Source of the DNA: a virus
Lineage: Duplodnaviria; Heunggongvirae; Uroviricota; Caudoviricetes; Ackermannviridae
IMG/VR virus record: IMGVR_UViG_2974616520_000001
Location: 1-49,327 of that record
Strand: one strand, 5' to 3'
Length of the DNA stretch: 49,327 bases
This document shows, piece after piece, positions 30,001-33,000 of this stretch (within the stretch, counting starts at the first letter, position 1; each line of letters begins with the position of its first letter). The position numbers were made by a program.

Positions 30001-33000
30001 GACTGTGAACATCGTTATTTCTCATAGGGTTGACGATGTCCTATTTTACCTGCTATTGCTTATTGAATAGCTGCAGAATACCTCGGGCCACTGGCTTGCT
30101 ATCAGGAGTGTACCACAGCTGAGTATCCTCCCGGCCGCAATCACCACAGCGGTCTTTCACCACTGTTACAGGCAGACGCTTAACCGGGCGGCCAGAGGCC
30201 TCCTGAGCAGTCTTCTGGTTGGTGAACTGCTCTACGGCGCGATGCGCGTTACCACCACATTTACATTGCATCTTTCTGCTCCTTACGGGCCTGCTCAACA
30301 ATCTTCTGTATCCGCAGGCGCTGACTATGTTGGGCCTGGGCGCGGCCTTTCTTTGAACGCTTGTACAAGAACTCGTGTACCATGTCGTCCAATTTGCTGG
30401 CGGCGTCGGAACCAACAAACCACGCAATGGTTACTGCCACAGTAATCATAATACCAAGATTCACCAGGGCTTCTGACATTATTTCGTCCTCCAGGCTGGG
30501 TTAGCTGTATATGGCAACCGGTTACGTTCGGGATCGTTGAAGATATTCTTCTTCGGTGATCCTGGAGAACTGACCTGTTTCTGGGTTTCTTTCGACCCAG
30601 GACATGAGTTCTCGGCTGTAGAAAGGATTTTCTTCTGGCACAGCAAATATTCTTCGAAGTTCCTCAGAACGTCTTGCTTCGTTCTCCCGCTTACGTTGAT
30701 CCTGTTCTTGGTCATCTAATTCCTTCCGGGCTTGCTCAATGATGCCTTTCACTTTAACTGCGTTTGGGCGTTGAATATACTCTTCAGCAACGTTATTAAG
30801 AGCATCGATAAAAGACTGGCATTCGGATAATTGTGGGCAATTAAATAGTATAAATCTGACATTCAAATTTACTTCTTTATCTCGAATTGTAAAGCTGGGA
30901 GCCATTTCCAAAGTCACGGTAAGATACGAAGATTCAGATTTGGCCGACACATGATGCTTGACCATCGGAATAAATTCTAATACGCCCATGAATAAATGGA
31001 AGAATCTGATGGCCTCTTTAATCGTTTCAGCCGGGTTATCTTTATAGTGATGAACGTAATAGCTCGTGCTTAAACAAACGGGCTTATTGTGATATTCTGA
31101 CACCCAGGTATGGCCGAGGCTATTATCCGTAGTCAGCGCTGCTGTTAACCTTTCACGCAACAACGGATTACGTTCTTCAATAAACGGCGTGAGAATTGAT
31201 ACAGCTGGATCACACCAGACTGCACGAGGTCTGGTCGGTGTGAACAAACTACTGAGCCACTTTAGCATGGAGCAACTCCTCTTCGGCCATTTTGACGATA
31301 CGCTGGGTGCGGGTCCAGCCCTGATACTGTTCCATAAACTCTACAGTCTCACGGTACAGCTGACGACGCAGAGTGGCATCGTCACAATATTCACCATGAA
31401 AGCTGGTCATGAAGTTCAATATGAACGTCATTCGGTATAGATAACCTTCCACCAGAACAATGAACGTGATAGTGTTGTCGGCCCTGTTCCTTAGCAGACG
31501 AATATCAGGGTAATCCAGGTTGGCCAAGACTTGCCTCAGGACCGATTTGGTGATCTGAGGATCAAACATAATAGAGAATTCGTCACCACGATAGTTCCCC
31601 AGCTTGGTTTGCAGGACTTTATCACGGAACATGTAATACATGTCAGGGGTAGCCCAGCGCCCCTTGAGGCCGTGCTTATCAGCTTTGTTCCGAACGGTAC
31701 TGAAATCATTTACGAATCGGAAAGCAATCAGCATTGCGATCATCACAGTGATAGAAAGACAAATGCCTGCCAGGTTGTAGCTCATCTGACTTCTCCTAAA
31801 AGAAAGGGGGCCGTAGCCCCCAAGTGTTTATTACAGAGGCCAGATTAGCCCTGACGGAATTCTGCTGTAGGTTTAGCACTTGCCAGCAGCTCGTCCATAT
31901 AGCTGTCAACATCCAGGGAAGTGACTGGAGTCTGGGTAGCAGACTCGGTGAAGACTTCCACTTCCTTCAGCAGGCGGTCAACTTCAATCGAGGTATCTTC
32001 GATGCTGAAGTCAATCTGGCCTGGCAGCGCAATACCGGAAGATTTGAACTGCTCTTCGATCTTGGCCAGTTCCAGCTGAGCCTGCAGGTTTTCCAGCGCA
32101 TCACTGTGCTTGACGATACCGGTGTTGATTTTGGTGTTCGCTGTCTGCAGCTTTTCGACTTCATTAGAGAAGCCCTTAGCCAGCTGACGCTTACGCAGGA
32201 TGATAGCCAGCACAGTTTTGTCAACTGTATTACCCTTGCCGAGCAGTGCCTTGACCTGCAGCTCTTTTTCGTTCGCTTCAGAATTCAGGGTTTTGGCCTG
32301 GGCCTGATACTGTTCAATCGCCTGGCTGTTCGCATTCTTCTGACGACCGAGTTTATCGATGTCATCCATCAGCTTGGTAGCCGCCAGGTTGTAGTTGTCA
32401 ACCGCTTTGATAGAGCCTACAGCCAGTGAGTTGGTCTTTGCTTCAAACAGACGAAACAGGCGTTTGAAAATGTTCATGTTATTTCCTTTGCAGTGAGTAA
32501 AGTTTACATTGAGTATAATAGGTGCTTCATGTTCAATAAACTAATCTACAACCTTCAGATACTTGTTCAGAGCCCAGATGCCAACCATGCCTGTGATGAT
32601 GGACTTCATGACCAACAGTCCCAGGCAGGTCTCAAGCCAGATCCATTCGATCATTTACCTGCTTCCACATCAAGAGGGCAATCCGGTGACAGGAACTCGA
32701 ATCTGTTCGAGGCACCAGATGCTTGCTCGTGGGCCTGCTTCCACATCATATCAACAGCAGCCTGAGCCTCAGCCTTGTTCTCAAAGGTCAGGCGAGTCAT
32801 ACCAGTATCCACACGGATAACAATCACCCGGCATGAGTCATTACGTGATACAGCCTGCTCAAGGGCATCTGTATCAATCTTTTCGGCGCGGGCTACGTTG
32901 GCGGCCATGGCCCCAAATAAGAAACCTGCGATGGCCCCGACGAGGCCCAGTCTTGTGCAATTGGTCATACAATTTCCCCTAATGTTGGACGCGTGATAAC

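What the first reader, a model, noticed from the sequence alone, without database searches (positions are those of the whole stretch)
31798..32538. Phage-encoded PspA/Vipp1 (ESCRT-III-like) gene as a stand-alone cassette
Seen: a 210-aa, all-helical-looking protein with a PspA-like amphipathic N-terminus (MNIFKRLFRLFEAKTNSL) and acidic C-terminal helix, bracketed by its own box promoter and a UACG terminator. Small membrane or exported proteins flank it (32541-32654, 32651-32968, 31249-31785, 30261-30479). Known: PspA/Vipp1 polymers remodel and repair inner membranes and preserve PMF; host PspA also inhibits PspF. Inference: the phage may patch membrane damage from injection or from pore-forming abortive-infection effectors, complementing rIIA/rIIB, or it may interfere with host Psp signalling. 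The neighbouring TM peptides could stand in for PspB/PspC.
Basis: partly seen in the sequence, partly recalled or inferred. Interest (0 to 1): 0.72.

Follow-up and report, generated by a model that had tools for sequence, protein, structure and literature searches.

The report
Phage PspA-like protein (T4 e.6 family)
This phage gene encodes a very divergent relative of the bacterial membrane-repair protein PspA and belongs to the same widespread but untested family as phage T4 gene e.6; others have already made this link by computer, so the call is correct but not new.

Summary
There is a 210-aa ORF at 31845-32477 (-). It has a basic amphipathic N-terminus and an acidic C-terminal third, a UACG-tetraloop terminator 24 nt after its stop, a recurring box motif upstream, and hydrophobic small ORFs on both sides.

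Pfam, NCBIfam and a PDB sequence search find nothing with the protein alone. It is a clear member of phrog_1203, the family of phage T4 e.6. The family is in about 1,100 T4-like records and about 120 records reached from the window protein, mostly Ackermannviridae.

Family-level evidence places it in PspA/IM30 (ESCRT-III superfamily):
- The family profile hits Vipp1/PspA chains first and in register.
- hhalign against 28 bacterial PspA proteins gives 96.9% probability, E 1.8e-10, over 177 columns. Reversed and shuffled controls fail.
- Foldseek ranks Vipp1 first, and the model has the α0-α5 helix order.

Rigid-body structure search is unspecific, so homology rests on the profiles.

The neighbouring peptides show no similarity to PspB or PspC. 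Both the homology (2021, 2022) and the anti-abortive-infection idea (2022) are published, and I found no experiment. The most likely role is a membrane-binding polymer that protects the inner membrane and proton-motive force during infection; this is inferred, not shown.

The parts
31845..32477 (-). CDS, 210 aa: divergent PspA/IM30-like protein, member of phrog_1203 (T4 e.6 family)
   Evidence: ORF. phrog_1203 E 1.3e-59, full length. hhalign of the family against T4 e.6: 100%, E 1.6e-41. hhalign of the family against 28 bacterial PspA: 96.9%, E 1.8e-10.
32415..32474 (-). Codons 2-21: basic amphipathic N-terminal helix (alpha0), the predicted membrane-binding element
   Evidence: Hydrophobic moment 0.575, the highest in the protein, and charge +3. 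Family mean 0.41 against background 0.26, and mean charge +2.6. Aligns to PspA/Vipp1 residues 1-20.
32037..32405 (-). Codons 25-147: long helical hairpin (alpha1 and alpha2/3), the ESCRT-III-type core
   Evidence: AF2 helices 25-80 and 87-147 with pLDDT above 90. In-register alignment to Vipp1/PspA 1-147. 4whe PspA hairpin Z 9.2, rmsd 2.4 over 121 residues.
31845..32036 (-). Codons 148-210 and stop: acidic C-terminal third with helices alpha4 (160-174) and alpha5 (187-201) and family-specific conserved residues G148, D/E189, Y193 and L197
   Evidence: Net charge -9. Family mean -7.2; G148 in 34/35 and Y193 in 33/35. The last ~30 residues are not aligned to PspA by hhalign.
31798..31821 (-). 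Intrinsic-terminator-like hairpin GGGGGC-UACG-GCCCCC plus U-tract, 24 nt after the stop codon
   Evidence: Terminator scan and fold. A GC-rich tetraloop hairpin sits in the same place after the homologue in 7 of 7 lineages, including T4.
32508..32538 (-). Box motif TATTGAAC-N18-CTCAAT overlapping TATTATACT, in the 63-nt gap upstream of the gene; a possible phage promoter or operator
   Evidence: Motif occurs 8 times against 0.22 expected, mostly in intergenic regions. Not picked up by the sigma-70 scan. Function not shown.
32482..32488 (-). Ribosome-binding site AAGGAAA, 5-11 nt before the ATG
   Evidence: Read directly from the sequence.
31249..31785 (-). Downstream neighbour, 178 aa with an N-terminal transmembrane segment; context only, link not shown
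   Evidence: Hydrophobic segment at 1-28. A ~180-190-aa protein lies immediately downstream of the homologue in Kuttervirus (N-terminal hydrophobic segment) and Agtrevirus (one TM in the record's annotation; none at my threshold), but no sequence similarity to them is detectable. Only 61% identical to phiEa2809.
32541..32654 (-). Upstream neighbour, 37-aa single-pass peptide; context only
   Evidence: Hydrophobic segment at 9-29. A 38-aa TM peptide lies in the same gene cluster, directly after the ~397-aa gene, in Kuttervirus and Agtrevirus. No Pfam hit.
32651..32968 (-). Upstream neighbour, 105 aa with an N-terminal hydrophobic segment (signal peptide or anchor); context only
   Evidence: Hydrophobic segment at 4-26. 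Weak phrog_1863 hit, E 0.004.
30261..30479 (-). 72-aa protein with an N-terminal TM segment and a basic C-terminal helix; context only
   Evidence: Hydrophobic segment at 1-27. No alignment to E. coli PspB.

Best explanation
The gene encodes a phage branch of the PspA/IM30/Vipp1 family (bacterial ESCRT-III superfamily). It is the same family as phage T4 e.6 (phrog_1203). It is probably made early to mid infection from its own small transcription unit. The proposed mechanism is as follows. The basic amphipathic N-terminal helix docks the protein on the cytoplasmic face of the inner membrane. The long alpha1-alpha2/3 hairpin polymerises into carpets, rings or rods. These assemblies seal or stabilise stressed membrane and keep the proton-motive force up until the phage is ready to lyse. 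The stress could come from genome injection, the phage's own many small membrane proteins, superinfection, or host pore-forming suicide defences. What is shown: the ORF, its family membership, and its remote homology and predicted helix order. What is inferred: membrane binding, polymerisation, timing in this phage, and the physiological role.
For: Family membership: phrog_1203 E 1.3e-59; hhalign of the 35-sequence family alignment against T4 e.6 gives 100%, E 1.6e-41.

Homology to PspA/IM30:
- The family profile against PDB sequences returns Vipp1/PspA as the top 8 hits (E 1e-4 to 8e-4), aligned from residue 1 to ~146 in register.
- 6 of 35 members hit PF04012, best E 8.9e-10. The Kuttervirus member scores 33.7 bits against a cut-off of 33.9.
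- hhalign against 28 diverse Pseudomonadota PspA/YjfJ proteins gives 96.9%, E 1.8e-10, 177 columns. The reversed control gives 2.3% and column shuffles give E of 0.05 or more.
- Foldseek ranks Vipp1 first (7o3w, E 8e-4, prob 1.00), and other Vipp1/PspA and ESCRT-III chains recur in the list.
- ESM Atlas: 22 of 30 feature neighbours are PspA clusters, and the best structural neighbour is a PspA cluster at TM 0.66.

Architecture: five helices in the PspA order and of similar lengths. A basic amphipathic alpha0 and an acidic tail are conserved across the family.

Context: the gene lies in a local cluster of membrane-protein ORFs (p 0.007). Membrane ORFs lie near the homologue in 6 of 7 lineages examined.

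Expression of the T4 homologue: early RNA, middle protein, detected by proteomics (PMC9697503 supplement).

Independent reports: HHpred 99.9% to PspA 4WHE for a T4 e.6 homologue (PMC7862958), and phrog_1203 called a PspA homologue (PMC9409062).
Against: The protein alone matches no curated PspA model: Pfam, NCBIfam, and the PF04012 six-frame search of the phage genome. Identity to E. coli PspA is about 14%. A rigid-body structure search is unspecific: BAR domains and other coiled coils score Z 10-11, above PspA 4whe (Z 9.2) and Vipp1 (Z 8.9). So the fold alone cannot prove an ESCRT-III relationship. The last ~30 residues, with the conserved Y193 motif, have no counterpart in PspA. No PspB, PspC or PspF-like partner is found nearby. 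There is no experimental evidence for membrane binding, polymerisation or a phenotype in the literature searched.
Confidence: 0.6

Rival explanations
1. Interference with the host Psp response. The phage protein mimics host PspA. It either binds the activator PspF to keep the host psp operon off, or it co-polymerises with host PspA and poisons or redirects it.
For: The part most similar to E. coli PspA is the N-terminal ~62 residues (hhalign of the family against the single E. coli sequence). From established knowledge of E. coli PspA, this region holds the two amphipathic helices used for membrane and PspF contacts. Erwinia and other enterobacterial hosts carry pspA.
Against: The family is separated from all sampled Pseudomonadota PspA/YjfJ proteins by one long, fully supported branch. 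It is only ~14% identical to host PspA, which is not what a recent mimic of a host partner surface would look like. The family is conserved across phages of many hosts. No residue-level test of a PspF interface was possible.
Confidence: 0.12
2. Partner or chaperone for the phage's own small membrane proteins. The polymer is recruited by the neighbouring single-pass proteins, or it controls them, for example in superinfection exclusion or lysis timing. It would not be a general membrane repair factor.
For: There is a cluster of hydrophobic ORFs around the gene (5 of 9 against 7 of 58, p 0.007). A ~180-190-aa protein lies directly downstream in three Ackermannviridae genera; it has an N-terminal hydrophobic segment in this window and in Kuttervirus, and one TM by the record's annotation in Agtrevirus. 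Membrane ORFs lie close by in Morganella phage MP1 and T4.
Against: The neighbours are not detectably homologous between genera. Phage GAP161 has no membrane ORF nearby and phiMAM1 has none adjacent. Small membrane ORFs are common in phage early regions. A terminator separates the gene from its downstream neighbour.
Confidence: 0.12
3. A generic coiled-coil protein with no membrane role, for example a scaffold in replication or assembly. Its resemblance to PspA would then be compositional.
For: VIA-align ranks many unrelated coiled coils and BAR domains above PspA. Weak Pfam and NCBIfam hits of the single protein are to assorted coiled-coil families. The gene lies in the replication gene block between DNA ligase and primase-helicase.
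Against: The profile-profile match is in register from residue 1 over 177 columns, and it collapses when the PspA alignment is reversed or shuffled. PF04012 is the only family hit by several members at significant E-values. The conserved basic amphipathic N-terminus is a PspA/Vipp1 hallmark.
Confidence: 0.06
4. An immune decoy. The phage PspA-like protein substitutes for host PspA as a target or anchor of a defence system, for example by soaking up a CBASS cyclase that Cap2 conjugates to PspA, and so keeps the system silent.
For: In a Bacillus CBASS system the cyclase is conjugated exclusively to host PspA and is proposed to be held inactive that way (PMC11153139). Phage decoys of host proteins are a known strategy (general knowledge).
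Against: This rests purely on analogy. The published case is from Bacillus, and no conjugation-site conservation was tested. The family is very divergent from host PspA.
Confidence: 0.04

Closest known systems
Phage T4 e.6 (NP_049742, UniProt P39224) and phrog_1203
   Same: Same family: full-length match, ~200 aa, same helix order, same basic N-terminus and acidic tail with a conserved Tyr. A GC-rich tetraloop hairpin follows the stop codon in both.
   Different: About 22% identity to T4 e.6. The window protein belongs to an Ackermannviridae branch (Erwinia phage phiEa2809, 98% identical) and sits between DNA ligase and primase-helicase rather than in the T4 e-tRNA region.
Bacterial PspA / IM30 / Vipp1 (Pfam PF04012; PDB 4WHE, 7ABK, 6ZVR, 7O3W)
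   Same: Profile-level homology over alpha0 to alpha4, an N-terminal amphipathic helix, a long alpha1-alpha2/3 hairpin and similar length.
   Different: About 14% identity, and below the Pfam threshold as a single sequence. It has a family-specific C-terminal motif (G148, Y193, L197) and lacks a match to PspA alpha5. No pspBC or pspF partners were found nearby. It forms a separate clade from the sampled Pseudomonadota PspA and YjfJ proteins.
Pfam-detectable PspA genes of huge and other large phages (bioRxiv 10.64898/2026.10.24.761521)
   Same: PspA-family genes carried by large phages, often next to membrane-associated genes and proposed to manage host membrane stress.
   Different: Those were found with PF04012 at E of 1e-5 or better and are mostly from gut Bacillota-associated phages. 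The window protein has no PF04012 hit at E up to 1, so that screen would miss it, and it belongs to phages of Enterobacterales.
Eukaryotic and archaeal ESCRT-III (Snf7, CHMP1B, CdvB)
   Same: Helical hairpin core, basic N-terminal half and acidic C-terminal part. These proteins appear among the Foldseek hits.
   Different: The relationship is seen only at the weak structural level (E 0.03-0.2). No MIM/Vps4-type partner was identified, and nothing here shows membrane scission activity.

Membership tests
phrog_1203 / T4 e.6 family | Significant full-length match to the family profile | tested here: met
   E 1.3e-59, residues 1-198 on profile positions 1-199 of 200. T4 e.6 itself scores E 8e-88.
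phrog_1203 / T4 e.6 family | Profile-level match of the window protein's family alignment to T4 e.6 | tested here: met
   hhalign 100%, E 1.6e-41, 197 columns.
PspA/IM30 (PF04012) | The protein itself reaches the curated Pfam score (33.9 bits) | tested here: not met
   No PF04012 hit at E up to 1. No hit in the six-frame search of the phage genome. No NCBIfam PspA hit. This is an operational threshold, so I file the protein as a divergent sister subfamily, not as a canonical PspA.
PspA/IM30 (PF04012) | Homology detectable at profile level, in register, over the conserved core | tested here: met
   hhalign 96.9%, E 1.8e-10, 177 columns, with failed reversed and shuffled controls. Family profile against PDB: top 8 hits are Vipp1/PspA. 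6 of 35 members hit PF04012, best E 8.9e-10.
PspA/IM30 (PF04012) | N-terminal amphipathic helix alpha0 | tested here: met
   Hydrophobic moment 0.575 for residues 2-19, charge +3. Conserved in the family: mean 0.41 against background 0.26. This is a prediction only.
PspA/IM30 (PF04012) | alpha1-alpha2/3 hairpin followed by alpha4 and alpha5 (ESCRT-III fold) | tested here: inconclusive
   The AF2 model has this helix order, and Foldseek ranks Vipp1 first (E 8e-4). VIA-align gives equal or higher Z to BAR domains and other coiled coils. A monomer model cannot show the polymer-state fold.
PspA/IM30 (PF04012) | Self-assembly into rings, rods or carpets, and membrane binding | not testable with these tools
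   This needs purified protein, electron microscopy and liposome assays.
Psp system (PspA with PspB/PspC and PspF) | Adjacent PspB/PspC-type membrane partners or a PspF regulator | tested here: not met
   No Pfam PspB or PspC hit for any neighbour. No BLASTP alignment of the 72-aa ORF to PspB or of the 178-aa ORF to PspC.

The most novel reading that the evidence does not exclude
The e.6-family protein and the fast-evolving single-pass membrane proteins around it form a phage-owned Psp-like module. The membrane proteins would recruit or trigger the ESCRT-III-like polymer at damaged sites, neutralising membrane-depolarising abortive-infection effectors. A variant of this reading is that the protein acts as a decoy for PspA-linked immune control such as Cap2 conjugation of CBASS cyclases. 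Either way it would be a widespread counter-defence carried by T4-like and Vi1-like phages.
Probability: 0.15. Interest if true: 0.75.

Novelty: new member of a known kind. Interest (0 to 1): 0.4.

Why it matters
PspA/Vipp1 proteins are the bacterial branch of the ESCRT-III membrane-remodelling superfamily. A conserved, expressed homologue is present in phage T4 itself and in well over a thousand sequenced T4-like and Vi1-like phages. This means many well-studied lytic phages bring their own membrane-maintenance protein, yet nobody appears to have tested what it does. Because T4 is genetically tractable, whether phages protect host membrane energetics, or counter pore-forming suicide defences, with their own ESCRT-III-like polymer is directly testable. 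For annotation, the result shows that phrog_1203 members, nearly all labelled 'hypothetical' and sometimes mislabelled, can be named PspA/IM30-like.

Tried and rejected
- Single-sequence searches gave nothing useful: Pfam, NCBIfam, phmmer against PDB, and PF04012 against the phage genome.
- The 6-sequence profile against PDB gave only tektin and other coiled-coil noise. The 35-sequence profile was needed.
- hhalign of the family against the single E. coli PspA sequence reached only 61% over 62 residues. A diverse PspA alignment was needed.
- Searches for diverse PspA sequences through the search for homologous proteins and the search for related loci returned only close gammaproteobacterial PspA. 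Diversity came from a phylum-wide genome search.
- VIA-align wide search was unspecific, with BAR domains and coiled coils on top. It cannot be used for or against the assignment.
- PspB/PspC stand-in idea: no similarity.
- Homology between the downstream membrane proteins of different genera, or with T4 e.5: none detectable by BLASTP.
- A sigma-70 promoter upstream of the gene: none found by the scan.
- Earlier scan notes: none for this sequence.
- CRISPRi-ART supplement: no entry for e.6.
- The careful maximum-likelihood tree did not finish. Only the quick tree is reported.
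Full report
**What is in the sequence**

The window closely matches Erwinia phage phiEa2809 (Ackermannviridae, Nezavisimistyvirus): 97% nucleotide identity over 84% of the 1.8-kb query around the gene. The flagged ORF is real. It runs 31845-32477 on the minus strand and encodes 210 aa starting MNIFKRLFRLFEAKTNSL. It lies in the minus-strand replication block between DNA ligase (28555-30012) and the primase-helicase.

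A hairpin GGGGGC-UACG-GCCCCC followed by UUUCUUUU lies 24 nt after the stop codon (31821-31798). Upstream there is a 63-nt gap with an AAGGAAA ribosome-binding site and a motif TATTGAAC-N18-CTCAAT (32508-32538). Versions of this motif, some near-perfect palindromes, recur in other intergenic regions: 8 matches against 0.22 expected. The sigma-70 scan reports no promoter there, so 'own promoter' remains plausible but unproven.

Within 30.2-34.4 kb, 5 of 9 ORFs do, against 7 of 58 elsewhere in the window (Fisher p 0.007).

**Which family it belongs to**

Taken alone, the protein matches no curated model:
- Pfam gives only sub-threshold coiled-coil noise.
- NCBIfam gives the same.
- phmmer against PDB sequences finds nothing.
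- The PF04012 model finds nothing in the whole 164-kb phage genome.

It does match phrog_1203 (unknown function) over its full length at E 1.3e-59. An exhaustive profile search of 1.84 billion representatives found only 33 relatives at 50% clustering, and all but one 88-aa fragment are about 200 aa.

One GenBank record (Shigella phage Ag3) calls its copy 'e.6'. This led to T4 gene e.6 (197 aa), which hits phrog_1203 at E 8e-88 and matches the 35-sequence family alignment at 100%, E 1.6e-41.

The family is widespread:
- tblastn with the window protein finds 121 phage records. These are Ackermannviridae of Salmonella, Escherichia, Shigella and Serratia, plus T4-like phages of Cronobacter, Klebsiella, Enterobacter, Citrobacter, Morganella and Providencia.
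- tblastn with T4 e.6 finds 1,106 records.
- Nearly all copies are labelled hypothetical.

**Relation to PspA/IM30**

Several lines of family-level evidence agree.
- The 35-sequence profile searched against PDB sequences returns Vipp1/PspA chains as its eight best hits (E 1e-4 to 8e-4). E. coli PspA 4WHE follows at E 0.0017. All are aligned from residue 1 to about 146 in register.
- Scanned one by one, 6 of 35 members hit PF04012, best E 8.9e-10. No other family comes close. The Kuttervirus member scores 33.7 bits against a cut-off of 33.9.
- I built a 28-sequence alignment of diverse Pseudomonadota PspA and YjfJ proteins from a phylum-wide genome search. hhalign of the phage family against it gives 96.9% probability, E 1.8e-10, over 177 columns. 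Window residues 1-179 align with E. coli PspA 1-181. Reversing the PspA alignment gives 2.3% (E 0.02), and eight column shuffles give E 0.05-0.97. The match is therefore not a coiled-coil composition artefact.
- The AlphaFold2 model (35 sequences, mean pLDDT 77.8, hairpin above 90) has helices at 4-21, 25-80, 87-147, 160-174 and 187-201. This is the alpha0-alpha5 order and spacing of PspA.
- Foldseek ranks Vipp1 7o3w first (E 8e-4, prob 1.00). Other Vipp1 and PspA chains, CdvB2, CHMP1B and Snf7 recur in the list. In the viral library the hits after its own family include a giant-virus Snf7 protein and an Acinetobacter phage 'PspA/IM30 family protein'.
- In the ESM Atlas, 22 of 30 feature neighbours are PspA clusters at score 0.94, and the best structural neighbour is a PspA cluster at TM 0.66.

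One caveat is important. The rigid-body search (VIA-align) is unspecific. BAR domains and unrelated coiled coils score Z 10-11. PspA 4whe scores Z 9.2 (rmsd 2.4 over 121 residues) and Vipp1 scores 8.9. The assignment rests on the in-register profile evidence.

**How it differs from PspA**
- Identity to E. coli PspA is about 14%.
- In a quick maximum-likelihood tree, the 41 phage sequences and the 28 bacterial ones sit on opposite sides of one long branch with full support. The phage gene is therefore not a recent capture from an enterobacterial host. Only Pseudomonadota were sampled, and the tree is unrooted and from the quick search.
- The C-terminal third is family-specific. G148 (34/35), Y193 (33/35) and L197 are conserved, and the mean net charge of the last 55 residues is -7.2. 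The last ~30 residues do not align to PspA.
- The basic amphipathic N-terminus is conserved: mean hydrophobic moment 0.41 against background 0.26, and mean charge +2.6.
- A basic front and an acidic tail are also the classical charge pattern of ESCRT-III proteins. This comes from established knowledge and was not tested here.

**Context**

In Kuttervirus and Agtrevirus the gene order around the homologue is conserved: a ~397-aa phrog_2319 protein, a 38-aa TM peptide, small ORFs, the PspA-like gene, a 180-190-aa protein (N-terminal hydrophobic segment in Kuttervirus; one TM by annotation in Agtrevirus), further small TM proteins, then DNA ligase.

The downstream membrane proteins of the three genera show no detectable similarity to each other or to T4 e.5. 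The window's copy is only 61% identical to phiEa2809's, while the PspA-like protein is 98% identical. None of the neighbours resembles PspB or PspC.

In all seven lineages examined, a GC-rich tetraloop hairpin follows the stop codon of the e.6-family gene. These are the window, Kuttervirus, Agtrevirus, Miltonvirus, Pseudotevenvirus, Gualtarvirus and T4. This supports the idea of a discrete transcription-unit end or a stabilised 3' end. An rIIA homologue lies at window 1-2892.

**What is already known**
- A 2021 genome announcement noted that the T4 e.6 homologue of Klebsiella phage Metamorpho aligns to PspA 4WHE at 99.9% in HHpred (PMC7862958).
- A 2022 paper called phrog_1203 a PspA homologue in a Kuttervirus and proposed that it is a new anti-abortive-infection function that prevents loss of proton-motive force (PMC9409062).
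- One GenBank Kuttervirus record already names the gene 'PspA/IM30 family protein'.
- A 2026 preprint surveys Pfam-detectable pspA genes in huge and other large phages and proposes membrane-stress management. Its PF04012 screen at E of 1e-5 or better would miss the window protein, which has no PF04012 hit at E up to 1.
- T4 e.6 is transcribed early, and the protein appears in the middle class by proteomics (PMC9697503 supplement).
- I found no experimental study of any family member in the library searched.

**Mechanism and verdict**

The best-supported reading is a phage-encoded, highly divergent PspA/IM30-type protein. It would bind the inner membrane through its N-terminal helix and polymerise through its hairpin, stabilising the membrane and the proton-motive force during infection. 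I put homology at about 0.9 and the whole mechanistic statement at about 0.6.

The rivals are interference with host PspF/PspA, a dedicated partner of the flanking phage membrane proteins, a non-membrane coiled-coil scaffold, and an immune decoy. The decoy idea is suggested by the finding that a CBASS cyclase is conjugated to host PspA (PMC11153139).

The finding is therefore a new member of a known kind. Its residual interest is that the family, T4 e.6 included, is experimentally untouched.

Noticed in passing
window 31798-31821 (-); L002:3529-3567, L119:3097-3140, L116:3097-3164, L117:3097-3127, L118:3097-3139, L004:1371-1413: A GC-rich tetraloop hairpin (UACG, ACAU, GAAA, UUCG and similar loops) directly follows the stop codon of the e.6-family gene in all seven phage lineages examined, across two phage families. 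It is a conserved 3'-end element, either a terminator or an RNA stabiliser.
   Followed up: partly
window 34944-34971, 43473-43499, 32508-32538, 47685-47714, 14969-14994, 26855-26887: An inverted-repeat box TATTGAA-N13..19-TTCAAT occurs 8 times against 0.22 expected, mostly in intergenic gaps upstream of minus-strand genes. Two copies are near-perfect palindromes. Related TTCAATA-N12..14-TATAAT arrangements lie upstream of the genes starting at 35685, 41917 and 44762. It could be a phage promoter class or a regulator's operator.
   Followed up: partly
window 31249-31785 (-): This 178-aa ORF with an N-terminal membrane anchor is only 61% identical to its phiEa2809 counterpart, which is unannotated there. 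The adjacent PspA-like protein is 98% identical. It has no family in Pfam, PHROGs or NCBIfam and appears to be a fast-evolving membrane protein.
   Followed up: partly
window 30261-34337: A local cluster of small membrane-protein ORFs (30261-30479, 31249-31785, 32541-32654, 32651-32968, 34152-34337) lies inside the replication gene block. Five of 9 ORFs are hydrophobic against 7 of 58 elsewhere (Fisher p 0.007).
   Followed up: partly
window 32965-34155 (-): A 396-aa protein of phrog_2319 (E 1.8e-119, unknown function) is conserved upstream of the PspA-like gene in Ackermannviridae. The Ag3 record reports similarity to a Vibrio phage KVP40 protein. It has no Pfam or NCBIfam match.
   Followed up: no
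window 1-2892 (+): A 963-aa ORF has similarity to T4 rIIA (34% identity over residues 96-303, E 7e-25). The following 535-aa ORF (2896-4503) is in the position of rIIB but was not tested.
   Followed up: partly
GenBank records OL615011, OZ035849, LR597657, MT499896 (L002:2237-2353), PubMed PMC9409062: Family members are mislabelled 'putative ABC-type phosphate transport system' and 'Phage host specificity protein', and a 38-aa TM peptide is labelled 'HNH endonuclease'. The 2022 paper's statement that the gene is found in only one of its own Kuttervirus isolates contrasts with the 43 Salmonella phage records found by tblastn.
   Followed up: no
window 30522-31268 (-): A 248-aa ORF overlaps the stop of the upstream gene by 20 nt. 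It has no match in Pfam, PHROGs or NCBIfam.
   Followed up: no
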